Shown here piece by piece: positions 47,857-58,101 of a stretch of 64,000 nucleotides of DNA. Location: positions 1,296-65,295 of the forward strand of contig JBBTVB010000002.1 of NCBI GenBank assembly GCA_038063455.1, read 5' to 3'. Position numbers and translations under genes: made by a program. The notes beneath the pieces were generated by a model. The model did not search any database. It was not told the origin of the DNA and saw only the letters and a list, made by a program, of their open reading frames with translations. This stretch comes from Patescibacteria group bacterium. GTDB taxonomy: Bacteria > Patescibacteriota > Patescibacteriia > PEXW01. Position 1 is the first letter of the stretch; each line of letters opens with the position of its first letter.

Positions 47857-48969
47857 TTAGCTATCGACTTCTTCCCCTTCCAACTCGGCGAGTTTTTTGA
47901 GGAGCTTTTTACGCTCGCCAGATATTTTTCGCGGCGTATCGACAATGATAGTAACCAAATGGTCGCCCCGCCCGCGCTTGCGCAAGTGCGGCACGCCTTT
48001 GTCGGCCAAACGGAATACTTTGCCCGACTGCGTGCCGGCCGGGATCTTCATTGACACTGGGCCATCCAAAGTTTCAACTTCTACCTTGGTGCCTAACGCG
48101 GCACTGGCGAGCCCTAAGTGAGCGTCAGAAATAATATCGGCGCCTGTACGTTTGTATCGTGGATCAGTCTGCACTTGGATGCGCAAGAATAAATCCCCTG
48201 CGCCAGCGCCGCGTTCGCCGGCTTCGCCCTGGCCCGAGAGGCGCAAGGTTTCACCGTCGTCTATGCCTGCTGGAACGTTGACCTTAATGAGCACGTCTTG
48301 CTTGCGCTTGCCATCGCCGCCGCAGGTCTTGCACTTTTGGCTGGGAATACTGCCCTGGCCATCGCAAGTGCTGCACACCACGGCTTGCGCCATTTGGCCG
48401 AAAATGGAATTGACCACGCGCTGTACTTGGCCACTGCCCTTGCAGGTGGAACAGGTAGTCACTTTTGTGCCCGGTTCAGCCCCGCTGCCATCGCATACGT
48501 TACAAACTGCTTCTTTGTAGAGTGAAAATTCTTTCGTGACCCCAAATACCGCCTCGCGGAAGGTTAGCCGCAAATCAGCTTGAATGTCGGCACCGGATTG
48601 TTTTCGGGTTCGACGCGATCGGCCCCCGCCAAAACCAAACATGTCGCCGAAAATATCACCCAGGTCGCCCATATCCACATTGCCTTGAAAACCACCTTGC
48701 TGGCCAAATCCGCCAAAGCCTGCCCCAGCGCCTGGGCCGCCGCCCTGCCGCCGCGCATCATCAAAGGTTTGGCCATACTGGTCATACTGCCCGCGCTTCT
48801 CTTTGTTCGAGAGCACTTGGTACGCCTCGTTCACCTCTTTAAACTTGGTTTCGTCGCCGTGGGTTTTGTCCGGATGAAATTCGTGCGCTTTCTTGCGAAA
48901 GGCTTTTTTTATTTCGTCCTCGGTGGCACTGCGCGAAACGCCGAGCAAATCGTAGTAGTCTTTGGCCAT
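47857..48969 (-). CDS. dnaJ: chaperone DnaJ
   Basis: J-domain with HPD, a G/F-rich linker and four CxxCxGxG zinc motifs. Confidence 0.95.
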
Positions 48970-48975
48970 AGTGTC

Positions 48976-50151
48976 TTACACTCCCAGATTCTGCACTATA
49001 ACCGTTTTTTCGGTGATGCGCAAGAGTCCGAGCTTGCGGTACAGCCAGGCAATGAGCGGGGCGAAAGCGTAAATGAGGTAGCGAAACACAATGCTGCCCA
49101 GTTGCAGGATGAAGAAGAATGACAGCGCCAAGATGGGCGGGAAAAGTTTTTGGTAGGGGTCGACGTACTTGGCAATATTCCGGGTAAGAATTTTTTCAAC
49201 GACGCTGTCCATAGTATCGCTGCCGGTGGCTGCGACGCCAAAGGTCTGTAAGAATTCTGTCCGCGCTTCATCTAAGAGTGCCCGTTGGGCTGCCGAGAGC
49301 TGGGCCAAAGCTTGCGCTTGTAAAAAAGCACGCTGCTGCTCCAAATTCGATTCCACGTGCTGGGTAACAGCACTGCTCGCTGCCGGGTTATCAAAAACCG
49401 GATTCACTCTTTTTAACTGTTCGGTAATGGCTTTATACGCCTCTTGCTTCTTCGCGTCGCTATCTAAAGTCTGGGTAATTTGCGGGGTCACAAATTCGCC
49501 AAACTTGTCGGTAACCACCAAGCTCAAAAACTGGTCTAACGTCATGCTGCCGCGGTAGCCAGGAATTTGCTTGGGCAAGTAGGCGTTGAGTCCGCTGCGA
49601 GCGGTGCTGGTTAAATCTGCTCGGACACCAGCCGCGGTTTGCGCCGATGTGCCCAGGGTGGCAAAGTAACAAAGGGATATGCCCACGAAAATAATAGCCA
49701 GCGTACCGCTTATACCAGCCGCAACCGTGCTCTGTGGTTGGGGTTGTACGCGGTTTTTCGCGTCGCGGACAATATTCCAAGCACATGCCATGAGCCCAAC
49801 GTACACACAAGCAACCGCAACGTAGGTGGCCGGCTGCAATGGGAAGAAAACCAGTAGTCCGATGCTGCAAAAGAATGCAACGCAACCAGTACCCCAAAAA
49901 TGTGTCCGCCGAAACGCCATAGCCACTATTCCAAATAGCGCCAGCATAACGCAAAAGAAAACCACAGCTATGAGTAGCTGCTGCACCTGCGCCCACCGCG
50001 GCAGGGTTACCAGGTCGTGCTGTAAGGGCAGGCTCAAACTCCACCAAAAAAGCAGGGAAAAAATAAAAGCCACCCCGCCCATAACCCAAAACTTCCAGGT
50101 AGCTGGCTTTTTCTCAACTGGTTGCTTGGCAGGGGTAACGGGGGTGATCAT
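48976..50151 (-). CDS. hypothetical polytopic membrane protein, 391 aa
   Basis: Long ORF with N- and C-terminal TM clusters. A 6-nt gap separates it from dnaJ. Confidence 0.6.
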   Translation of the reverse strand: MITPVTPAKQPVEKKPATWKFWVMGGVAFIFSLLFWWSLSLPLQHDLVTLPRWAQVQQLLIAVVFFCVMLALFGIVAMAFRRTHFWGTGCVAFFCSIGLLVFFPLQPATYVAVACVYVGLMACAWNIVRDAKNRVQPQPQSTVAAGISGTLAIIFVGISLCYFATLGTSAQTAAGVRADLTSTARSGLNAYLPKQIPGYRGSMTLDQFLSLVVTDKFGEFVTPQITQTLDSDAKKQEAYKAITEQLKRVNPVFDNPAASSAVTQHVESNLEQQRAFLQAQALAQLSAAQRALLDEARTEFLQTFGVAATGSDTMDSVVEKILTRNIAKYVDPYQKLFPPILALSFFFILQLGSIVFRYLIYAFAPLIAWLYRKLGLLRITEKTVIVQNLGV

Positions 50152-50251
50152 GTATACAGGTAGTTTACAGCATTGTTACAATCTTGACATTTTCGGGTGT
50201 ATGTCGTAGCCTGCCACAAGTTAACACAAACCTACAAAATGGAGGTCCAAC

Positions 50252-50482
50252 GTGGCTGTAGATCAAAAGTTCATTCAATCGGCAGTGTACAGACTGCACT
50301 ACAAAGGCAACCCAGTCACTGGCTCTAGCCACGACAAAGGGGTTACCAAGGCGTGCATTGCTCTAACGGTTCCACCTTACACGCTGTGGGTGGATATTAC
50401 GACTATGAACGCTTCAGATTTTGCCCCGCCTGTATACCAGCGGCGTGTAACTCATCCAGCCGAATCTCAATCTCAAGCCTAG
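50252..50482 (+). CDS. small hypothetical protein, 76 aa
   Basis: Promoter TTGACA-17-TAGCCT (50184-50212). GGAGG 6 nt before the GTG. Terminator ATCTGCC...GGCAGAT + T7 (50504-50537). Confidence 0.55.
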   Translation: MAVDQKFIQSAVYRLHYKGNPVTGSSHDKGVTKACIALTVPPYTLWVDITTMNASDFAPPVYQRRVTHPAESQSQA

Positions 50483-50595
50483 GCGCACGCATCTGTGTGC
50501 CCCATCTGCCCCACTAAACCTGAGGCAGATTTTTTTCCCCGTTTTAAAACTCCTATTCGGATGTAGGTAGCGAGCTTGCTCGCCAGTACATCATT

Positions 50596-50886
50596 TTACG
50601 CCTGAAAACCAATCCCGCTGGTGGTCGGCGCGTCGGCTTCGGTAATTTTGCCAAAAGCCTTTTCGTACTTTTCCAGGTTCTCTTTAACCGCACCAAGAAT
50701 GCGCTTCATATGGCCGGGGGAAACAATAACCCGCGCCGTAGCTACGCCCGTACCCTGCGCCGGGTAGATGTTAATGAAGTCGAGAACGAATTCCTCTTTA
50801 CTATGCGCCACACCCATCATGTTGGCGTACACGCCCTTAAGGGTAGCATCGTCAATTTTTATCTGGATTTGTTGCTGCTGGTTCAT
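50596..50886 (-). CDS. DUF3467-like small protein, 96 aa
   Basis: Y(A)N...V.....EF.LDF...........AR...SP...K.....L......YE..FG pattern. Start moved to MNQQQQ at 50886. Confidence 0.65.
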   Translation of the reverse strand: MNQQQQIQIKIDDATLKGVYANMMGVAHSKEEFVLDFINIYPAQGTGVATARVIVSPGHMKRILGAVKENLEKYEKAFGKITEADAPTTSGIGFQA

Positions 50887-51034
50887 ATGGATAAAGGGTT
50901 TAAGACGATACAACAATTGTACCACGGAGGTTGACCCAGTCCCACTTTTCCTGACAAAAAAGTGGAGCTGGGTTGACGCCAGACAGGGAATGCTTATACT
51001 TGCGTGCATAAATCAAACATACACGGAGGTACAG

Positions 51035-51322
51035 ATGACCGAGATTAGACACGCAAATAGCGTAAGATTTACAAGCCGGAACACTGGGTGTGCAGCATGC
51101 GAACTCGTGTGTGGCGGCGGCGATGGCGAGCATATCGAAACCATTAGCATCGAGGACTTTGAGAATGGCCACGCACAGATGAATAAGACGGTAGCCGATG
51201 AGGATGGCTATAGTACCAACCTGAATGTGACTACCTGCTCGTTTACGAATGCAACACAAAAGCAATTCAAAAAGTGGTTGGAGGAAAATAGTAATATTCC
51301 CCTACACACATTTATGGGTTAA
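51035..51322 (+). CDS. small hypothetical protein, 95 aa
   Basis: Promoter TTGACG-17-ATACTT (50973-51001). ACGGAGGT SD 5 nt before the ATG. Bidirectional terminator at 51342-51376. Confidence 0.55.
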   Translation: MTEIRHANSVRFTSRNTGCAACELVCGGGDGEHIETISIEDFENGHAQMNKTVADEDGYSTNLNVTTCSFTNATQKQFKKWLEENSNIPLHTFMG

Positions 51323-51374
51323 GCCCCAGCGCACACCATGCAGCCGTCGGTCTACTCTATACCGGCGGCTTTTT

Positions 51375-51662
51375 TTATTTTTGCTTTTTTGCCGTGCCCC
51401 GGTAGAGCACTTTAAACTTGAGGCGACTAACATTTTGATGTTTCTTCCCACGTTCAGCCTTCGCGCCAAGCACCCACACTTTAATGCCGCCGCTCCCTTT
51501 CTTTTCCGTTTCGCTGGTAACGGCCACGTCGAACTCAATAAACGAGCTGGCTGACCGCCGGTCGGTAGTTATGCGGAACTGGTGGTGCGTGGTCTTGCTG
51601 GCCCCATCCATGCCTTGAGCAATGGACGTGAGCGTACTGGTTATAAAGTCGGTGAGGTTCAT
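51375..51662 (-). CDS. trypco2-like (trypsin-co-occurring domain 2-like) small protein, 95 aa
   Basis: The pattern L.DFI.....S......FIEFDVAVTSETEKKGSGGIKVWVLGAKAE......H...LKFKV matches my memory of the trypco2 family consensus. No search was run. Confidence 0.5.
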   Translation of the reverse strand: MNLTDFITSTLTSIAQGMDGASKTTHHQFRITTDRRSASSFIEFDVAVTSETEKKGSGGIKVWVLGAKAERGKKHQNVSRLKFKVLYRGTAKKQK

Positions 51663-51716
51663 AGGAGTATTACTGAGTTAAACTATTAAAACTCTTGGAG
51701 GAAGTTGCTACACCCC

Positions 51717-52781
51717 TTACGATGCCGCCTTCACGCCATAGTGCGACGCGGCAAATGTGTACTGTTCCACAAAAATTTTTCGCAAGGGAACAATAGTATT
51801 CAATTCGTACAGTGCCAGCGTTGCCTCCCGATAGGCTACCTCATCCACACTTCGATAAGACAACGGTGCGCGACCATGTGCGAGAAGTACGGCATTTGCC
51901 ATGAGTCGGGCGGTACGTTTGTTGCCATCACCAAACGGCTGAATGTAGCTAATTCCCAGGAGTGCCACAAACGCCTTGGCGTAGGGTGAGGTCATACTGT
52001 TCACCGAGGTTGTCAGCTGGTCTACTGCTTCGGTAACCTGGTGTGCGTTATCCAGCGGCTGGTAACGTGAGCCAACAACACCAACGGGCTTGCTTCGAAA
52101 ACCTAGGTCAATATCTAAATCTGCAACGAGTAAGGCGTGTACCTTTTCCAGATGAGCGCGCGTGACGGTGCGGAAGTCCGTAGCGTGTGAATAAATCCAG
52201 GTAAACGCGGCCTTGTGGTTCAGGATCATTGCTGCCTCTTGCTTATCGTGTCCAACAGCAGGCGTGTTTTCCAGAAGCAACTTCTCCGTATCGAGGAGGG
52301 TGTAGGTGTTGCCCTCAATTTTTGAAGATTTCCAAGACAGCTCAATAACGAGCCGTTCGAGCTCCTTCTTCTGCATTGCTTCCGAAAGGTCCGTTGTTCG
52401 CACCTCGTATGCCTGTGTCGCCTGCTGCAGCATGTCCGCCTCCTGCTTGGAGAAAATATCAACCGGTAACTCTGGAAATAACTGGAAGTTGAAGTTCTGA
52501 AAACCGTACCGTTTATCCGGCTCCACCGCACAGTACTGCCGCGCATCAACATCAGCAAATACCCGGCCAACCGTGGCAATTTTGTACCGGGTTGCGCGGC
52601 CAGACCCGACAACCGCGAGTAAACCGGTTGCTACCATTTCCGAAAGCGCACGTTTTATCGTAACCAACGAAGTACGTAGTCCTGCTTCGGTAACTCTTGT
52701 GTGTACGGCAGAAGACGACATTTCCCCAAACTGGAGAAAGATCTTAAGCAATTGCTGCTGTTTTTCGTTTATTTCTATCAT
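51717..52781 (-). CDS. Fic/Doc-family protein with N-terminal wHTH, inhibitory SxxxEG motif and a degenerate active-site motif
   Basis: SSKIEGN fits (S/T)xxxE(G/N). The active-site position reads IQPFGDGNKRTAR where HxFx(D/E)GN(G/K)RxxR is expected, so His is replaced by Gln and the NKR is Doc-like. Confidence 0.75.
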   Translation of the reverse strand: MIEINEKQQQLLKIFLQFGEMSSSAVHTRVTEAGLRTSLVTIKRALSEMVATGLLAVVGSGRATRYKIATVGRVFADVDARQYCAVEPDKRYGFQNFNFQLFPELPVDIFSKQEADMLQQATQAYEVRTTDLSEAMQKKELERLVIELSWKSSKIEGNTYTLLDTEKLLLENTPAVGHDKQEAAMILNHKAAFTWIYSHATDFRTVTRAHLEKVHALLVADLDIDLGFRSKPVGVVGSRYQPLDNAHQVTEAVDQLTTSVNSMTSPYAKAFVALLGISYIQPFGDGNKRTARLMANAVLLAHGRAPLSYRSVDEVAYREATLALYELNTIVPLRKIFVEQYTFAASHYGVKAAS

Positions 52782-52805
52782 AATCGTATCATTAATACAC
52801 TTCTA

Positions 52806-52824
52806 TCGTATCATAATGATACGA
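52806..52824. promoter_or_regulatory. perfect palindrome upstream of the Fic-like gene (candidate operator)
   Basis: TCGTATCAT-A-ATGATACGA at 52806-52824. An extra half-site ATCGTATCAT at 52783-52792 abuts the start codon. Confidence 0.5.
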
Positions 52825-53016
52825 AAAAAGCAAGGAATTGCGTTTGATTGAACCTTTTATAAGTTGTTCCCCCGGTTCCCCGTTCTAAGTTCTCCGTTCT
52901 CTGTACTTTGATCCCTACCCCCCCGCCTGCCCCAAGAGGGACCGCAGAGGGGAACAGGTTGACTAATTAGCGAGCTCTTACTAGGCTTGCCTTGAAACAC
53001 AAGGAGGTAAAAATGA

Positions 53017-53292
53017 CTATTCGATAACGTCAATTTTGACAATCATTCCGAGGGGCAACGCTGTTTTCTTCTGGAACGGCAGCTTGACCCGCCAATCAAA
53101 GTTTCATCACTGCACATACGCACCGGGGCACTTCAGATTGGAACCACCGAAGAAATCTCGCCTATGTTCATAAAAGGTGAAACGGATATTGGGCAGGTGT
53201 TATTGCTGCCGCCCGAACATTACCAGCAGTTCCAAGCCTGGTGCATTCGAATCAACATTTCATTCGAAAACGCAAACGAGCTACCAAACTAA
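53017..53292 (+). pseudogene. 91-sense-codon open frame without a canonical in-frame start near its 5' end (frameshifted gene or recoding candidate)
   Basis: Promoter TTGACT-17-TAGGCT (52959-52987). A perfect AAGGAGGT SD plus the ATG at 53013 opens only a 4-codon ORF (MTIR*). The long frame is +1 relative to it. Terminator AAGACTCGC/GCGAGTCTT + T-run at 53311-53340. Confidence 0.45.
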
Positions 53293-53366
53293 ATTTCCCA
53301 AAACCTCATTAAGACTCGCTACGGCGAGTCTTTTCTTTTTGCCCCAAATCCCCCCGGCGAGAAATC

Positions 53367-53924
53367 CTACTCTTCAATCTGCGGCGCGAGATGGGTAAAT
53401 TCAACCAACTTCTTTTTCGCTTCGGCAATTATAGGATGCTCCCACCCTTCTGCAATTGCGGCAATGCCTTTTTCGTACTTTTGTGTGTACTCTTCGACCG
53501 TACCATGGCGAAATATTTTTTCGTACCTAGCCTCTGCAAAGCCAATAAACAATACTAAGTGATGAATGTAATCGGCACACTTTAGGGCTTTGTAGTCGGG
53601 GCTTGCAGTCTGTAAATGTGCTTGTGTGAGCTCCTGCCTTTCTGCCCAGGGAATAGTCTGGTCTACAGTCGCCTCTTCTACTAAAGTGGCTACGTCTCCA
53701 GAGAAATTTGCGCGGACCTCCTCTATCGTGCAGTCAGTATCTTCAACAACATCATGGAGCAAACCAGCAATAATGACATGCTCGGGAAAACCGTGACGTT
53801 CCAAAATCGCCGCCACGTTAAACGGGTGGGATATAAACGGCTCGGCACTATCAATCTTATACTTCTGATCTTGGTGCCACTTTGCCACGAACATTGTGGC
53901 TTTGTTGTAGAGCTGAAGATTCAT
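53367..53924 (-). CDS. HD-domain hydrolase of the RelA/SpoT type (small alarmone hydrolase-like)
   Basis: ISHPFNVAAIL...AGLLHDVVEDT...V..LVEE.T pattern. An extended -10 TGCTAGAAT (53931-53939) ends 6 nt before the ATG, which suggests a leaderless mRNA. Confidence 0.75.
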   Translation of the reverse strand: MNLQLYNKATMFVAKWHQDQKYKIDSAEPFISHPFNVAAILERHGFPEHVIIAGLLHDVVEDTDCTIEEVRANFSGDVATLVEEATVDQTIPWAERQELTQAHLQTASPDYKALKCADYIHHLVLFIGFAEARYEKIFRHGTVEEYTQKYEKGIAAIAEGWEHPIIAEAKKKLVEFTHLAPQIEE

Positions 53925-54051
53925 ATCTGTATTCTAGCACCCTCCCTCCACTTTACCCCCCCCCCGCCTGCCGCAGAAGGGCCGCAGGGGGAAGCGTAAA
54001 AAATAAAATGACCTTCTTAAAATAAGGCCTCAGAATTAGACTAAAAGCTTT

Positions 54052-54456
54052 TTAAGCGATTGCTTTCGCAAATGACCTATTTGTAGTTAACTTACCAAAA
54101 AGTAAGTCCACGATACCCCAAAATTTTTCGCCTTTGGATTCTCTACTCTTATAAAGTCTCTCAGCAAGGAGGCGCATTTCAGGTACCTCCCTAGAGTAAA
54201 CAGAGTAGAAGCTTTGAATACTAAAATATTCAATCTTTGCAGAAGTTTTATCAATTGAAATTGAAAGATTATTATCAATCGGAAAAAGAATTGATTCAGG
54301 TGAGGGTTTGGCGTTCGGATCGCTCCAGTAAAACTCATCATTTTGCTTGTCGTAAAACATCCCCCATTGACCATCTCTAAGTTGCTCAGCAGTTACTGAG
54401 AGATTATTCATGAATATAGATAAAAATTCCTGGGTGTCTAAATTAGTTTTCGGCAT
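54052..54456 (-). CDS. hypothetical protein, 134 aa (weak DUF2283-like pattern)
   Basis: AT-rich ORF overlapping the upstream ORF by 19 nt. MFYDKQNDEFYWS...ISIDKTSAKIEYFSIQSF weakly recalls YD...D.ly......vD....g.ivgiEi. Confidence 0.45.
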   Translation of the reverse strand: MPKTNLDTQEFLSIFMNNLSVTAEQLRDGQWGMFYDKQNDEFYWSDPNAKPSPESILFPIDNNLSISIDKTSAKIEYFSIQSFYSVYSREVPEMRLLAERLYKSRESKGEKFWGIVDLLFGKLTTNRSFAKAIA

Positions 54457-54920
54457 AGGTTTTCAGCAATTGTCGGAAATACATTATATGTAGTAATAAA
54501 AATTCTTTTGCCTTTTTCGTCAGTAGCAAAGCAAATTTTCAGATAATCTGGGCCTTTAGGTTTTGATTGATAAATGCTGTACATGCAGCGAATGCGTTTA
54601 TCATGATTAGAAGGACAAATGCATTTACTATTCCGAAAAGTATCCGGGATAAGGACCTCTAAAAACCGTTGACACCCACCTTCTTGATACCACCATTTAA
54701 ATGGATTCCTTCGATGATCTTCGAGGTTCTTTTTGTCGAGCAATAATCTATAGCCTGAAAACCCACCTTTGTCAAGGACTAGATCAAGAACATACTCTTT
54801 TGGGCTGCCGGTAAACAAAATGTTTGACTGATTAAAAAACAAGAATTTTGCGTATTCAAAGGGGTTCGCACAAAGACATTCATTGACCTTAATGTACCAC
54901 GTAATCGCAGAGTCGGCCAA
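54438..54920 (-). CDS. hypothetical protein, 160 aa (weak DUF4258/toxin-like C-terminus)
   Basis: AT-rich ORF with a TTG start and no in-frame ATG early on. The C-terminal KICFATDEKGKRIFITTYNV resembles the ...viTvy ending of DUF4258-type toxins. Confidence 0.4.
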   Translation of the reverse strand: MADSAITWYIKVNECLCANPFEYAKFLFFNQSNILFTGSPKEYVLDLVLDKGGFSGYRLLLDKKNLEDHRRNPFKWWYQEGGCQRFLEVLIPDTFRNSKCICPSNHDKRIRCMYSIYQSKPKGPDYLKICFATDEKGKRIFITTYNVFPTIAENLCRKLI

Positions 54921-54962
54921 TTGTCCCCGCCTGCCGCATAGGGGAAGTAGTTGATTTATTCT

Positions 54963-56144
54963 TCATTCTAAATTAGGAACGTGCCCGTAATTCGACAAAC
55001 CCTGATTTAATAAATTATATATCTCTGTATCAACGATTGGATTTTTTGAAAAAATTGGCAGTACAGCCACATGCTCTGCGGGTTCAGCCTCTTTATCGGT
55101 TTGGTAATGAAACGAAAAGTTGGTAAAAAATATCCCATTTTCTTCTGAGGGGTTGCTTTGATCATGAGCACCAAGAGAGTCAACATTCCTTTTAATGTCT
55201 TCAAACCAAGGTTTATCCGGAAAATTCATGCCTGGGGTCAATGGAGCATTGAGATCAATAAATATCATGAACGGTATACCCCCTGGATTTTGTGCTAGGG
55301 CTTCTTCCAGCTTATCACGCACATCCGCTCTCATTAGCTCCTCAAGGTTCGCTGTTCCTGGTGTATGTATAACACCATGCCTATGTCGGCTTTTTGCTTC
55401 AACAGCAATCGATATATTTTTTCCTTTGTGTGTTGCAATGAACTCACAATGTGGTGCTTTGGGGTTACCACGGTCCAAAAATTCAATTTCAAAACCCAGG
55501 CGCGTGAAAATTGCAGCAATTGCTATTTCATACCTTGCACCTTGGTACTGATCTAAATTTTTCAAGCGATTAATCTGCCTTTGGAATAATTTTGCTCTAT
55601 GTTGCACACAATAAACATCAAAGGCCAACGCAAAAAGGGATTTGGACCAACCATCAGGCATTGCTCCCCATCGCTCACCCACTCTATTTGACGGTAGAGC
55701 ATTCCTTTTCTTCCAGTCATTATAATGAATGTAACATTGAATAATATAATGTTGTTCGGACTCGGGTAATGTTAGTTGTTCTTTTACCCAAGGCTCTCCG
55801 AGAGTCACCCCAAGTAACTCAATAATGAACTCATGAAATGTCTGCTTTAATGGTAACGAATGATATAGCCGCCCGCCTACAGCACGTACACGCTTCCCCT
55901 GGTACTCTGTTTGGATATGAGGAAGGTAATACCCCTTTGACTCTAGGGCGGCTTGTTCAGCCTGTATTTTTTGGAAATGACTGATTACCTCTTGCATATC
56001 TTCCTGCGTAGGACGCTTTTCATCTTGACCTAAGTGACATTTTTTATATTTTTTTCCACTTCCACAATAACAGGGGTCATTCCTGCCAATTTTGCTCTTT
56101 CCGAATTTTCTCATATGAATAGAATTTTGACTTAATTGCAGCAT
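54963..56144 (-). CDS. SEC-C motif protein with PD-(D/E)xK nuclease-like C-terminal region
   Basis: N-terminal GRNDPCYCGSGKKYKKCH. Later YEIAIAAIF...EIEFLD...CEFIA....ISIAVEAKSR fits an E/D...ExK nuclease core. AT-rich. The start may be the ATG at 56114. Confidence 0.65.
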   Translation of the reverse strand: MLQLSQNSIHMRKFGKSKIGRNDPCYCGSGKKYKKCHLGQDEKRPTQEDMQEVISHFQKIQAEQAALESKGYYLPHIQTEYQGKRVRAVGGRLYHSLPLKQTFHEFIIELLGVTLGEPWVKEQLTLPESEQHYIIQCYIHYNDWKKRNALPSNRVGERWGAMPDGWSKSLFALAFDVYCVQHRAKLFQRQINRLKNLDQYQGARYEIAIAAIFTRLGFEIEFLDRGNPKAPHCEFIATHKGKNISIAVEAKSRHRHGVIHTPGTANLEELMRADVRDKLEEALAQNPGGIPFMIFIDLNAPLTPGMNFPDKPWFEDIKRNVDSLGAHDQSNPSEENGIFFTNFSFHYQTDKEAEPAEHVAVLPIFSKNPIVDTEIYNLLNQGLSNYGHVPNLE

Positions 56145-56150
56145 TAACTA

Positions 56151-56176
56151 AAAAGGGGGCTGAGAGCCCCCTTTTT
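56151..56176. terminator. bidirectional terminator after dnaK
   Basis: AAAA-GGGGGCT-GAG-AGCCCCC-TTTTT. Confidence 0.85.
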
Positions 56177-56178
56177 AG

Positions 56179-58101
56179 TTACTTCTTAACCTCCTCGTAC
56201 TTCGCATCCACCGGCTCGTCCTTAGACCCTGAGCCTGTCGAAGGGTCATCCTTCTTATCCCCTCCTGCCGCAGGCCCCGAGCTTGTCGAGGGGTCGGCTT
56301 TCTGGTCCTTGTACATCGCCTGACCAATCTTCTGAATCGTCTGCCCCAAATCATCCGTGGCTTTCTTGATGGCATCCTTGTCCTCGCCATCCTTCACCTT
56401 TTTCACGGCCTCGATCTTTTCTTCAACTTCCTTCTTCACGTCGGCCGGGACTTTGTCACCGCCGTCTTTTATCGCTTTCTCCGCCGTGAACACCAAGCTA
56501 TCCGCACCGTTGCGCACGTCAATAAGCTCGCGCTTCTGCTTGTCCTCGTCCGCGTGCAGGGCGGCATCCTGCTTCATGCGTTCCACTTCGTCTTTGGATA
56601 AGCCGGACGACGCCGTAATGGTAATGCTCTGCTCTTTGCCGCTGGCCTTGTCTTTGGCCTTCACGTTGAGGATGCCGTTGGCGTCAATGTCGAACGTCAC
56701 TTCCACCTGCGGCACGCCGCGCGGCGCCGGCGGGATGCCGGACAGGATGAACCGGCCCAGGGACTTGTTGTCCCCAGCCATGGGTCGCTCCCCTTGCAGG
56801 ACGTGAATTTCCACCGAGGTTTGATTATCCGCGGCCGTGGAGAACACTTGGGACTTTGAGGTGGGGATAGTGGTATTGCGCTCGATGAGCGGGGTGGACA
56901 CGCTGCCCAGGGTTTCCAGGCCCACGGAGAGCGGGGTCACGTCCAGCAACAGCACGTCGCGTACTTCGCCTTGCAGCACGCCGGCTTGCACGGCTGCGCC
57001 AATGGCCACCACTTCGTCCGGGTTCACGCCCAGGTGGGGCTTTTTGCCGAAAAACTTTTCTACAGTTGATAGCACCAACGGCATACGAGTCATGCCGCCG
57101 ACCATGATCACTTCGTTAATGTCGGCGGGCGTAAGGCCGGCGTCTGCCAAAGCCTTCTTGGTTGGTTCCAGGGTTTGCTCCACCAGGTCGCCCACCAGCT
57201 GCTCCAACTTGGCGCGGGAGAGCTTGAGTACCAAGTGCTTGGGGCCGGACGCATCCGTGGTAATAAACGGCTGGTTGATCTCGGTTTCCGTGGTGGTGGA
57301 AAGCTCGTGCTTGGCCTTTTCCGCGCTCTCCTTAAGGCGCTGCAGGGCCATCTGGTCGTTGCCCAGATCAATGCCCTGGTCCTTCTTGAACTCGTCGATA
57401 ATCCAGTGGATAATCCGCTGGTCAAAGTCGTCGCCGCCCAGGTGGGTGTCGCCGTTGGTGGCTTTCACTTCCACCGTGTCGTTGGACACTTCCAGGATGG
57501 AAATGTCGAACGTGCCGCCGCCCAGGTCGTACACCGCAATTTTCTCGTCCTTCTTCTTGTTAAAGCCGTAGGCGAGCGCCGCGGCCGTGGGTTCGTTGAT
57601 AATGCGCTTCACCGTAAGGCCGGCAATTTCGCCGGCGTCCTTGGTGGCTTGGCGCTGACTATCGTCAAAATAGGCAGGAACCGTGATGACCGCTTCGGTA
57701 ATTTTCTCACCGAGCTTGGCTTCGGCGTCTTCTTTCATTTTTTGGAGGACGAGCGCGGAGATTTCTTGGGGGGCCATAGATTTGTCACCCATGCTCACTT
57801 TAACGCCTTCGCCTGCTTGGACAACTTTAAACGGAAAGACTTTGACGTCGCGTTGGACTTCTTCGTCGTTCCAGTGCCGGCCAATCAGGCGCTTGATGGA
57901 GTAGAGCGTATTTTGCGGGTTCACCACGGCTTGGCGCTTGGCCACTTGGCCCACCAGGCGCTCGCCGGTTTTGGAAATAGCTACAACAGAAGGCGTGGTG
58001 CGGTTGCCTTCCTTGTTTTCTAGTACCTTTGGCTCACCGCCTTCGATGATGGCCATGCAGGAGTTGGTTGTACCGAGGTCGATACCGAGAATTTTTGACA
58101 T
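56179..58101 (-). CDS. dnaK: chaperone DnaK (Hsp70)
   Basis: [17 protein letters not shown] and VGGMTRMP blocks. 640 aa. Confidence 0.97.

What the first reader, a model, noticed from the sequence alone, without database searches (positions are those of the whole stretch)
51375..52824. Fic/Doc-like protein with Gln replacing the catalytic His, its own wHTH and palindromic operator, followed by a trypco2-like gene
The 354-aa protein has a wHTH, the class-II inhibitory helix motif SSKIEGN, and an active-site loop IQPFGDGNKRTAR. The NKR is the Doc-kinase flavour of the Fic motif, but the catalytic His is Gln. That predicts either an inactive scaffold or sensor, or altered chemistry.

A perfect 9+9 palindrome TCGTATCAT-A-ATGATACGA and a third half-site overlap its promoter, which suggests autoregulation. 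Fifty-four nt downstream lies a 95-aa protein matching the trypco2 pattern. That domain is otherwise described as an adaptor or effector-associated module in NTP-dependent conflict systems. I do not know of a described Fic-trypco2 pairing.
Basis: partly seen in the sequence, partly recalled or inferred. Interest (0 to 1): 0.55.

Follow-up and report, generated by a model that had tools for sequence, protein, structure and literature searches.

The report
Self-regulated Gln-type Fic gene; trypco2 unrelated
The window carries a stand-alone, apparently self-repressing gene from a large, already noted but uncharacterised group of Fic/Doc enzymes whose catalytic histidine is a glutamine, while the small trypco2 gene next to it is just a resident neighbour, not a partner.

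Summary
They include a 354-aa wHTH-Fic protein with SSKIEGN and QPFGDGNKRTAR, a unique perfect palindrome plus a third half-site, and a 95-aa Trypco2 protein 54 nt downstream.

The Gln is not an error. It is fixed in all 120 closest homologues, in 80/80 genome loci, and in 109/110 motif-bearing cluster representatives down to about 30% identity. This His-to-Gln group was already noted in silico in 2015 as clade D2, with motif Qx[F/Y]x[D/E][G/V]NKR. Its biochemistry is unknown.

The autoregulation idea is strongly supported by comparison:
- The palindrome ATCGTATCA-nnn-TGATACGAT lies upstream in 79/79 Patescibacteria loci.
- It spans the spacer and extended -10 of a conserved TTGnnn-17-TACGAT promoter.
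- It is absent from 573 kb of flanking DNA.
- Distant subfamilies keep the same layout with different half-sites that track the recognition helix.

The Fic-trypco2 pairing is refuted:
- No trypco2 homologue of this lineage's type occurs in 87 loci that carry a homologue of this Fic gene.
- No partner is conserved on either side of the Fic gene.
- Trypco2 is a syntenic resident gene (HD_4 | trypco2 | DUF3467 | dnaJ) that occurs with or without the Fic cassette.

Verdict: a solo, self-contained, autoregulated Gln-Fic cassette in a variable island. Interest is moderate.

The parts
51718..52835 (-). Self-contained cassette: promoter and operator plus the wHTH-Fic(Gln) ORF. This is the block of homology shared with relatives.
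   Evidence: blastn finds window 52834/52835..51718 at 77-80% identity to L007, L008 and L010, which have different flanks. The block starts about 2 nt upstream of the -35 hexamer and ends at the stop codon.
51717..52781 (-). 354-aa protein made of an N-terminal wHTH, a linker, and a class-II Fic domain with Gln in place of the catalytic His.
   Evidence: ORF. Pfam Fic, E 2.2e-12. PADLOC SoFic model, E 3e-17. Model pLDDT 83.7. Best Foldseek matches are BT_2513 (3CUC), FICD, Fic-1, 7XUX and SoFic (3EQX).
52629..52670 (-). Predicted recognition helix of the wHTH (residues 38-51, SLVTIKRALSEMVA).
   Evidence: Helix 39-51 is followed by a beta-wing at 55-58 and 65-68 in the model. L39, T41, K43, R44 and L46 are invariant, and S38 and V40 nearly invariant, in 20 homologues of 59-84% identity.
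52308..52328 (-). Intramolecular inhibitory-helix motif S152-S-K-I-E156-G-N, of the form [S/T]xxxE[G/N].
   Evidence: It aligns to the FICD motif TVAIEGN. S152, S153, E156, G157 and N158 are invariant.
51906..51941 (-). Active-site loop Q281-P-F-G-D-G-N-K-R-T-A-R292.
   Evidence: Gln aligns to FICD His363. The motif is Q-x-F-x-D-G-N-K-R in 120/120 homologues, 80/80 genome loci and 109/110 cluster representatives.
52806..52824 (.). Palindromic operator TCGTATCAT-A-ATGATACGA. Family consensus is ATCGTATCA-nnn-TGATACGAT.
   Evidence: It is unique in the window. It is present within 130 nt upstream in 79/79 loci and absent from 573 kb of flanking DNA.
52828..52833 (-). -35-like hexamer TTGCTT.
   Evidence: TTG is conserved at a fixed position in the alignment of 80 upstream regions, 17 nt upstream of TACGAT. 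The generic promoter scan does not call it, so the assignment is inferred.
52805..52813 (-). Extended -10-like element TGA-TACGAT, lying inside the right arm of the palindrome.
   Evidence: Consensus and spacing. Many loci carry TATGAT here. Inferred, not mapped experimentally.
52784..52791 (-). Third half-site TGATACGA, 2 nt upstream of the ATG, where a Shine-Dalgarno sequence would normally be.
   Evidence: Present within 25 nt of the ATG in 72/79 loci, most often at position -10.
51375..51662 (-). 95-aa Trypco2 (Pepco) family gene. It is an adjacent resident gene and not part of the Fic module.
   Evidence: Pfam PF19631, 33 bits against a cut-off of 24.2. Its homology block begins at its own ATG and is shared with L001, L003 and L005, where no wHTH-Fic gene is present.

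Best explanation
Window 52835..51718 is a one-gene, self-contained cassette from a large, mostly Patescibacteria family of wHTH-Fic proteins. It belongs to the Gln-type 'D2' branch of the Fic/Doc superfamily.

**Proposed mechanism**
- The N-terminal winged helix binds, probably as a dimer, to the palindrome ATCGTATCA-nnn-TGATACGAT. This palindrome fills the spacer and the extended -10 of the gene's own promoter.
- It also binds a third half-site placed directly before the start codon. Together these hold the gene's own transcription at a low level, as type II toxin-antitoxin operons and the Fic protein CccR do.
- The Fic domain keeps an intact phosphate-binding anion hole (D-G-N-K-R...R), a target-docking beta-hairpin flap, and the cis-inhibitory Glu.
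- It is therefore most likely a restrained nucleotide-using enzyme, with a Doc-like (Lys-type) and possibly inverted NTP binding mode. The missing general base implies altered or attenuated chemistry.
- It acts alone rather than with a partner gene.

**Status of each step**
- Shown by comparison: the gene is solo, the operator is conserved and private to the gene, the operator changes together with the recognition helix, and the Gln is fixed.
- Inferred: DNA binding, repression, catalytic activity, and any toxin-like or defence-like role.
- The downstream trypco2 gene is an unrelated resident of this variable dnaK-dnaJ island.

**My probabilities**
- Solo autoregulated cassette unrelated to trypco2: about 0.85.
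- Fic domain is an active but restrained enzyme: about 0.45.
- Fic domain is a non-catalytic ligand sensor: about 0.35.
For: **Family size and the fixed Gln**
- 6972 word-sharing homologues were found.
- At least 507 GTDB species genomes encode a relative.
- Gln is present in 120/120, 80/80 and 109/110 sequences. It also occurs in 430-530-aa relatives with the motif YLQPFEDVNKR.

**Purifying selection on the catalytic apparatus**
- Invariant positions include Q281, P282, F283, D285, G286, N287, K288, R289, R292, E156, and flap residues 233-245.

**Fold**
- The model is confident, and its best matches are class II Fic proteins.

**Operator**
- Present in 79/79 loci, with a third half-site in 72/79.
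- No copies occur elsewhere in 573 kb of flanks, and none elsewhere in the 64 kb window.
- The consensus places it over a TTGnnn-17-TGnTACGAT promoter.
- 72 loci of distant subfamilies keep the 'inverted repeat plus extra half-site before the ATG' layout. Their half-sites differ and sort cleanly by recognition-helix class. The T-x-K-R class has TGAGCY in 38/44 and TTGTCCC in 3/44. The T-x-x-R-D/E class has TGWTACRA in 19/27 and TGATAG in 2/27. There are no cross-class cases.

**Solo status**
- Neighbours are heterogeneous on both sides: at most 3 of 76 downstream and 3 of 60 upstream share any Pfam family.
- The cassette boundaries are sharp.

**Precedent**
- CccR is a Fic domain plus a DNA-binding domain that represses its own promoter (PMC9755527).

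**Trypco2 is independent**
-.
Against: - There is no experimental evidence for DNA binding, catalysis or toxicity.
- All characterised Fic/Doc activities use the His as general base, so the domain may be catalytically dead.
- The generic sigma-70 scan does not call the promoter in this window, because TTGCTT and TACGAT are weak matches.
- The agreement between helix class and half-site class could partly reflect shared ancestry rather than direct recognition.
- As RNA, arm 1 and the third half-site could pair (dG -18.6 kcal/mol, z -4.45), so an RNA-level mechanism is not formally excluded.
- The family was not found on viral contigs.
- Mobility is inferred only from variable positions; no mobility genes were identified.
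Confidence: 0.6

Rival explanations
1. The Gln-Fic protein and the trypco2 protein form a two-gene conflict system, with Fic as sensor or regulator and trypco2 as effector or adaptor.
For: - The two genes are on the same strand, 54 nt apart, with no predicted terminator between them.
- In one relative (L005) a different Fic-fold gene, a MazE-Doc pair, sits directly upstream of trypco2.
Against: - None of 87 loci carrying a homologue of this Fic gene has a trypco2 homologue of this lineage's type within 4-6 kb.
- The closest Fic homologues are followed by RibD_C or a 511-aa gene.
- Trypco2 occurs in the same syntenic slot with no Fic gene at all in L001, L003 and L004.
- The two genes lie in separate homology blocks, and the 54-nt spacer between them is unique to this window.
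- Characterised Trypco2/Pepco proteins are partnered with proteases (PMC7159879; bioRxiv 10.1101/2025.11.14.688446). None is nearby.
- The MazE-Doc pair of L005 is itself a cassette found next to other genes elsewhere.
Confidence: 0.03
2. The protein is purely a ligand-sensing transcription factor, or pseudoenzyme. The Gln-Fic domain has lost catalysis. It only binds a nucleotide or a phosphorylated ligand, and this binding tunes DNA binding by the wHTH.
For: - The general base is missing in the whole family, while the phosphate-binding loop is invariant.
- The wHTH and operator are the best-supported functional parts.
Against: - The only detectable operator is at the gene's own promoter. A regulator that controls nothing but itself has no output.
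- Strict conservation of the inhibitory Glu and of the target-docking flap is easier to explain if an activity has to be restrained and a substrate has to be docked.
- His-to-Gln or His-to-Ala substitutions leave residual activity in other enzymes, as argued in PMC4454073.
Confidence: 0.3
3. The three repeats act at the RNA level. Arm 1 can pair with either arm 2 or the third copy, forming an alternative-hairpin switch that masks the start-codon region. On this view the repeats are not a protein operator.
For: - The RNA fold of 52770-52840(-) pairs arm 1 with the third half-site: dG -18.6 kcal/mol, z -4.45, and 0 of 200 shuffles fold as well.
- The arms change coordinately between subfamilies.
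- The common variant TGATATGA would preserve a G-U pair.
Against: - A conserved TTG sits upstream of arm 1 at 17-nt spacing from TACGAT. This puts arms 1 and 2 inside the promoter, not in the transcript.
- Cassette homology starts only about 2 nt upstream of the -35 hexamer, leaving no room for another promoter.
- The half-site sequence is conserved to the letter across proteins that are only 52-63% identical. This fits sequence-specific recognition rather than mere pairing.
- Recurrent arm-1 variants (TCGTTTCA opposite TGATACGA) are not compensated in L088, L095, L096, L098, L112 and L139.
- No Rfam family matches the region.
Confidence: 0.06
4. The Gln is a sequencing error or the gene is a decaying pseudogene.
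For: None beyond the departure from the canonical motif.
Against: - An identical protein is recorded on two contigs.
- Gln is universal in the family, and strong purifying selection acts across the whole protein.
Confidence: 0.01

Closest known systems
Clade D2 of the Doc/Fic superfamily (Khater & Mohanty 2015, Sci Rep, PMC4454073)
   Same: The defining motif is the same: catalytic His replaced by Gln, with consensus Qx[F/Y]x[D/E][G/V]NKR. Both the G form (this window) and the V form (distant 430-530-aa relatives) were seen here. The clade is bacterial and its function is unknown.
   Different: The paper had 45 sequences and called them 'usually single-domain'. The family here has thousands of members, mostly in Patescibacteria. 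It carries an N-terminal wHTH, a class-II inhibitory helix and a beta-hairpin flap, and it has a conserved private operator. That paper does not mention any of these features.
CccR of Yersinia pseudotuberculosis (PMC9755527; probably the 7XUX structure, judged from its title and release date only)
   Same: It is a Fic domain fused to a DNA-binding domain in one polypeptide, and the protein represses its own promoter. 7XUX is among the sequence and structural matches.
   Different: CccR has the canonical catalytic His and AMPylates FtsZ. Its DNA-binding domain is C-terminal, and it is a secreted T6SS effector. Here the wHTH is N-terminal, the His is Gln, and there is no secretion context.
Class II Fic proteins with a wHTH: SoFic (SO_4266, 3EQX; PADLOC 'SoFic' model) and BT_2513 (3CUC)
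   Same: They share the Fic fold with an intramolecular [S/T]xxxE[G/N] inhibitory helix N-terminal to the core. The PADLOC SoFic model scores E 3e-17, and Foldseek gives E 1e-8 to 4e-6. A canonical SoFic-like gene (HPFVDGNGR, 429 aa) lies in the same island in relatives.
   Different: Those proteins keep His and GNGR, and SoFic's wHTH is C-terminal. This protein has Gln and GNKR, and its wHTH is N-terminal.
Doc toxin of Phd/Doc (kinase of EF-Tu; Castro-Roa 2013, as cited in PMC4454073)
   Same: The active-site loop has Lys in place of the second Gly (NKR). In Doc this goes with inverted ATP binding and phosphotransfer.
   Different: Doc is a small single-domain protein that keeps the catalytic His. 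PMC4454073 describes the beta-hairpin as missing in Doc. From my own knowledge, Doc is inhibited in trans by the Phd antitoxin. Here inhibition is in cis, a flap is predicted, the His is Gln, and there is no antitoxin gene.
Trypco2 / Pepco protease-activated pore-forming effectors (PMC7159879; bioRxiv 10.1101/2025.11.14.688446)
   Same: The 95-aa neighbour reaches the Pfam Trypco2 threshold.
   Different: Described Trypco2/Pepco genes sit next to trypsin-like or caspase-like peptidases fused to sensors. Here there is no peptidase among the ten neighbouring genes scanned, and no trypsin or caspase catalytic motif in any long ORF of the window. The gene is an orphan in conserved synteny near dnaJ.

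Membership tests
Fic/Fido superfamily (PF02661) | Profile match above the curated threshold, and the Fic fold | tested here: met
   Pfam scores 48 bits against a cut-off of 24. Foldseek matches to 3CUC, FICD and SoFic have probability 1.00.
Fic/Fido superfamily (PF02661) | Signature HxFx[D/E]GN[G/K]R with an invariant catalytic His | tested here: not met
   The His position is Gln (QPFGDGNKR). All other signature positions are kept.
Class II Fic proteins (Engel et al. 2012 classification, from my own knowledge) | Inhibitory helix motif [S/T]xxxE[G/N] in the same chain, N-terminal to the Fic core | tested here: met
   S152-S-K-I-E156-G157 aligns with FICD TVAIEGN and is invariant in the family.
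Clade D2 (Gln-type Doc/Fic; PMC4454073) | Motif Qx[F/Y]x[D/E][G/V]NKR | tested here: met
   Q-P-F-G-D-G-N-K-R in the window protein. The family shows both the G and V variants.
Clade D2 (Gln-type Doc/Fic; PMC4454073) | 'Usually single-domain' architecture | tested here: not met
   The architecture has two modules, an N-terminal wHTH (residues about 1-70) plus the Fic domain. The paper's wording is 'usually', so this does not exclude membership.
Phd/Doc type II toxin-antitoxin | A small Doc toxin encoded after a separate antitoxin gene that supplies the inhibitory helix | tested here: not met
   No upstream gene is conserved, and the inhibitory helix is in cis. True MazE-Doc pairs exist in relatives as separate cassettes.
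SoFic single-gene defence system (PADLOC) | Match to the SoFic model together with a canonical AMPylase active site | tested here: inconclusive
   The model matches at E 3e-17 over residues 103-304, but the catalytic His is absent and the domain order differs. Anti-phage activity cannot be tested here.
Autoregulated HTH-Fic proteins (CccR-like) | A DNA-binding domain that binds its own promoter | tested here: inconclusive
   Comparative evidence is strong: 79/79 operator conservation over a promoter-like site, and half-sites that track the recognition helix. Binding itself was not tested.
Trypco2/Pepco protease-effector module | Profile match to Trypco2 | tested here: met
   PF19631 scores 33 bits against a cut-off of 24.2, E 7.4e-8. 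NCBI also names the identical protein a 'trypco2 family protein'.
Trypco2/Pepco protease-effector module | An adjacent trypsin-like or caspase-like peptidase gene | tested here: not met
   None of the ten neighbouring genes scanned between 46019 and 58101 is a peptidase by Pfam. No GDSG, TAAHC or QACRG motif occurs in any ORF longer than 150 aa in the window. No peptidase is present in the relatives' loci.
   None of 87 Fic loci contains a trypco2 homologue of this lineage's type. The trypco2 loci L001, L003 and L004 have no Fic gene at all, and L005 has only an unrelated MazE-Doc pair.

The most novel reading that the evidence does not exclude
The Gln-type wHTH-Fic family is a very abundant class of one-gene, self-repressing modules in Patescibacteria and is scattered through other bacteria. 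On this reading, its Fic domain performs His-independent chemistry. One possibility is Doc-like phosphotransfer, or nucleotide transfer, to an acceptor that needs no general base. Another is nucleotide-triggered release of the repressor. Either would make it a fused toxin-antitoxin-like or defence-like element of a kind not yet characterised biochemically.
Probability: 0.3. Interest if true: 0.6.

Novelty: new member of a known kind. Interest (0 to 1): 0.36.

Why it matters
The Gln branch of the Fic/Doc superfamily has been flagged since 2015, but I found no biochemical characterisation of it. This analysis shows several things about it:
- It is very large, with thousands of 90%-identity clusters and at least 507 species genomes.
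- It is under strong purifying selection on the whole nucleotide-binding apparatus.
- It comes as a compact cassette with an exactly defined operator and promoter.

That gives a ready experimental handle: a 60-bp DNA fragment plus one protein. With it one can ask what a Fic domain without its general base does. One can also ask whether small-genome CPR bacteria use such single-gene modules for addiction or defence.

The analysis also removes a false lead. There is no Fic-trypco2 system here.

Tried and rejected
**Fic-trypco2 pairing: rejected**
- I surveyed the neighbours of the closest Fic homologues.
- I surveyed 80 genome loci on both sides of the Fic gene with Pfam.
- I searched all Fic loci with an HMM of this lineage's trypco2.
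- Caveat: the HMM was built from 6 close trypco2 sequences. The Pfam summary lists only the 25 most frequent families. A very divergent trypco2 in a single locus could therefore be missed, but not a recurrent one.

**Other checks that led nowhere or were negative**
- Phage or viral carriage: none was found in IMG/VR with the two peptide patterns used.
- Rfam search of 50000-54500: no match.
- Generic promoter and terminator scan: it did not call the Fic promoter, and it found no terminator between the two genes.
- A cultured-organism example: the Bacteroides finegoldii plasmid homologue (43.5% identity) is N-terminally truncated and lacks the wHTH and operator, so it was uninformative.
- Other Fic or Doc copies, or MazE remnants, in the window: none beyond this gene.
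- General association with MazE-Doc: it is seen only in the closest relatives plus L053.
- The small plus-strand ORF that ends at 51322, convergent on trypco2: no significant similarity to the equivalently placed gene of L001.
- NCBIfam: no specific family model exists for either protein.
Full report
**1. The observation**

Both genes lie on the minus strand. The 354-aa ORF occupies 51717..52781 and the 95-aa ORF occupies 51375..51662, 54 nt downstream.

Fic-like protein:
- Pfam places the large protein in Fic/DOC at E 2.2e-12, 48 bits against a cut-off of 24.
- The small protein falls in Trypco2 at E 7.4e-8, 33 bits against a cut-off of 24.2.
- In a phmmer alignment to human FICD, SSKIEGN aligns with TVAIEGN, the motif that carries the inhibitory Glu234.
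- In the same alignment the Gln of YIQPFGDGNKRTAR occupies the position of catalytic His363. In the 7B7Z construct that position is the engineered Ala.
- An AlphaFold model built on 20 homologues is confident (pLDDT 83.7, pTM 0.86). It shows an N-terminal three-helix-plus-wing module at residues 6-68, the inhibitory helix, a beta-hairpin flap at 233-242, and the Fic core.
- Foldseek's best PDB matches are BT_2513 (3CUC), FICD, C. elegans Fic-1, 7XUX and SoFic (3EQX).

Palindrome:
- TCGTATCATAATGATACGA at 52806-52824 is the only match in 64 kb even with three mismatches allowed. Shuffles give an expected 0.07 matches.
- A third copy of the half-site lies at 52784-52791, two bases before the ATG.

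All the described features are therefore real.

**2. The Gln is a family character, and it is already in the literature**

- The protein has 6972 word-sharing homologues. The identical protein is annotated 'Fic family protein [Patescibacteria group bacterium]' on a 418-kb contig.
- All 120 best hits, at 59-100% identity, carry Q-[PL]-F-x-D-G-N-K-R.
- So do all 80 loci recovered from GTDB species genomes.
- In an exhaustive HMMER scan of 50%-identity cluster representatives, 109 of the 110 motif-bearing proteins among the top 150 have Gln and Lys, down to about 30% identity.
- More distant 430-530-aa relatives read YLQPFEDVNKRTSR.
- In a 20-sequence alignment the invariant positions include Q281, P282, F283, D285, G286, N287, K288, R289, T290, R292, the inhibitory S152, S153, E156, G157, N158, and much of the flap. 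This pattern is purifying selection on a working nucleotide/phosphate-binding site, not decay.
- Khater & Mohanty (2015, PMC4454073) described exactly this group as clade D2: 45 bacterial sequences, His replaced by Gln, consensus Qx[F|Y]x[D|E][G|V]NKR. They argued that it may not be catalytically dead.
- I found no experimental follow-up in the searchable library.

**3. Autoregulation is strongly supported by comparison**

Close relatives:
- The roughly 55 nt upstream of the ATG travels with the gene in relatives of 82-84% identity that have different flanks.
- blastn shows the shared block runs from 52835, about 2 nt upstream of the -35-like hexamer, exactly to the stop codon at 51718.

The wider Patescibacteria family:
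- I examined 79 loci whose proteins are only 52-63% identical to the query.
- Every one has the palindrome, with at most 2 mismatches, within 130 nt upstream. Its most frequent position is -43.
- 72 of the 79 have the extra half-site within 25 nt of the ATG, most often at -10.
- No other palindrome occurs in the 573 kb of flanking DNA in these loci.
- Isolated 8-mer half-sites there are no more frequent than a uniform-random estimate: 12 observed against about 17 expected.

Promoter geometry:
- The positional consensus is TTGnnn-tA-ATCGTATCA-ata-TGATACGAT-...-TAAATGATACGAatATG.
- This reads as a -35 TTGnnn, a 17-nt spacer, and an extended -10 TGn-TACGAT (often TATGAT).
- The palindrome fills the spacer and the -10. 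The third site occupies the short leader where a Shine-Dalgarno sequence would normally be.
- In window coordinates the -35 is 52828-52833 and the -10 is 52805-52810.
- The generic scan misses this promoter because each hexamer is a weak match. The promoter assignment rests on family-level conservation and is an inference.

Recognition helix:
- The predicted recognition helix covers residues 38-51 (SLVTIKRALSEM).
- L39, T41, K43, R44 and L46 are invariant, and S38 and V40 nearly so. This matches the invariance of the operator.

Distant subfamilies:
- I scanned metagenome contigs with an alignment of representatives that are 37-44% identical to the window protein and have different recognition helices.
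- The same layout recurs: an inverted repeat plus one more copy of the right arm before the ATG. The half-sites differ.
- Proteins with a T-x-K-R helix have TGAGCY repeats in 38/44 cases or TTGTCCC in 3/44.
- Proteins with a T-x-x-R-D/E helix have TGWTACRA in 19/27 cases or TGATAG in 2/27.
- No cross-class cases were found.
- Shared ancestry contributes to this association. Even so, letter-perfect conservation within subfamilies combined with wholesale change between them is what a co-evolving repressor-operator pair predicts.

The RNA-level alternative:
- As RNA, arm 1 could pair with the third half-site (dG -18.6 kcal/mol, z -4.45).
- I consider this unlikely for three reasons.
  - The conserved -35 lies upstream of arm 1.
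  - Cassette homology leaves no room for another promoter.
  - Recurrent arm-1 variants (TCGTTTCA opposite TGATACGA) are not compensated.

**4. The Fic-trypco2 pairing is not real**

From the trypco2 side:
- The gene has only six close homologues.
- Their contexts show it is a resident of a conserved neighbourhood: HD_4, trypco2, DUF3467, a 390-aa membrane protein, then dnaJ.
- In L001 trypco2 follows HD_4 after 12 nt, with no Fic gene.
- In L003 and L004 there is no Fic gene.
- In L005 a MazE-Doc pair (HVFVDGNKR) occupies the slot.

From the Fic side:
- The closest homologues are followed by RibD_C or by a 511-aa gene.
- The downstream neighbours in 76 further loci share no family in more than 3 cases.
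- The upstream neighbours in 60 loci likewise share no family in more than 3 cases.
- An HMM of this lineage's trypco2 finds no copy in any of the 87 Fic loci.

Other points:
- The two genes lie in separate homology blocks, and the 54-nt spacer between them is unique to this window.
- Described Trypco2 (also called Pepco) proteins are small pore-forming beta-barrels. An adjacent protease activates them by cutting the C-terminal tail (PMC7159879; bioRxiv 10.1101/2025.11.14.688446).
- None of the ten neighbouring genes scanned between 46019 and 58101 is a peptidase.
- No trypsin or caspase catalytic motif occurs in any long ORF of the window.
- The adjacency is best explained as insertion of the Fic cassette into a variable island between dnaK (56179-58101) and dnaJ (47857-48969). 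In relatives this island holds AbiEii, NUDIX, GIY-YIG, a canonical SoFic-like Fic gene, and MazE-Doc pairs.

**5. How it most likely works**

Shown by comparison:
- The gene is solo.
- It carries its own conserved promoter.
- A private operator overlaps that promoter.
- The Gln is fixed, in an otherwise intact Fic active site that keeps a cis-inhibitory Glu.

Inferred:
- The wHTH, probably as a dimer with a further contact at the third half-site, represses the gene's own transcription.
- The Fic domain binds an NTP. The Lys of NKR is the Doc feature associated with inverted ATP binding and phosphotransfer (Castro-Roa 2013, cited in PMC4454073).
- The E156-R292 type lock keeps the domain restrained.
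- Because no general base is present, the chemistry must be attenuated or different, or the site serves only for sensing.
- A regulator with no target other than itself makes little sense unless the second domain provides the output. For that reason I favour a fused, autoregulated toxin-like or defence-like module over a pure transcription factor, but only modestly: about 0.45 against 0.35.
- CccR, a Fic protein that represses its own promoter through a fused DNA-binding domain and AMPylates FtsZ, is a characterised precedent for the architecture (PMC9755527).

**6. Comparison, novelty and verdict**

- The gene is a member of the already noted Gln-type clade D2 of Fic/Doc.
- It fails the canonical Fic signature at the His only.
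- It is not a Phd/Doc pair, not a canonical SoFic, and not part of a Trypco2-protease module.
- As far as I could find, three things add to what is known:
  - the size of the family and its concentration in Patescibacteria;
  - the N-terminal wHTH;
  - the conserved operator that changes together with the recognition helix.
- Overall this is an ordinary, though uncharacterised and experimentally attractive, family member, not a new kind of system.
- Interest is 0.36.

Noticed in passing
window 52857-52952 (minus strand), with a second copy at 53950-53993; also L007/L010 upstream of the Fic cassette, and L010 282-315: A G-rich intergenic element (CCCCTCTGCGG...GGCAGGCGGGGGGGTAGGG) is followed by short GAGAAC-type repeats. 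It recurs at junctions between cassettes in this lineage, with 85-86% identity over 34-37 nt. There is no Rfam match. It may be a lineage-specific REP-like element or a recombination site marking cassette boundaries.
   Followed up: partly
window 47857-58101; L001, L003, L005, L007, L008, L010: The dnaK-dnaJ interval is a variable island in this Patescibacteria lineage. Different genomes hold AbiEii, NUDIX, GIY-YIG, RibD_C, a SEC-C protein, HD_4, a canonical SoFic-like His-Fic with a C-terminal wHTH, MazE-Doc pairs, or the Gln-Fic cassette. In L005 a MazE-Doc pair sits in exactly the HD_4 | trypco2 slot that the Gln-Fic cassette occupies in the window.
   Followed up: partly
window 51375-51662 (minus strand): This is an orphan Trypco2/Pepco-family gene with no protease partner nearby. 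It is conserved at 82-86% amino-acid identity in a fixed position between HD_4 and DUF3467/dnaJ. It departs from the protease-linked contexts described for this family.
   Followed up: partly
window 53036-53292 (plus strand): A small ORF with a strong AAGGAGGT ribosome-binding site starts at 53036. It appears to continue in another frame at 53164-53292. It may be a frameshifted small gene or a remnant in the 540-nt gap between HD_4 and the Fic cassette.
   Followed up: no
window 53367-53924 (minus strand): A 185-aa HD_4-domain protein (E 1.4e-15) lies directly upstream of the trypco2 slot here, in L001 and in L005. HD_4 is the RelA/SpoT-type hydrolase HD domain, so by my reading it is a likely small alarmone hydrolase.
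   Followed up: no
L094 (Bacteroides finegoldii plasmid NZ_OY725910.1, 3362-4273): A Gln-type Fic homologue (43.5% identity, YIQPFADGNKRTAR) sits on a Bacteroides plasmid near an integrase. It lacks most of the N-terminal wHTH and has no recognisable operator. The family also occurs on Rhodobacterales and Rhizobium plasmids at about 31-34% identity.
   Followed up: partly
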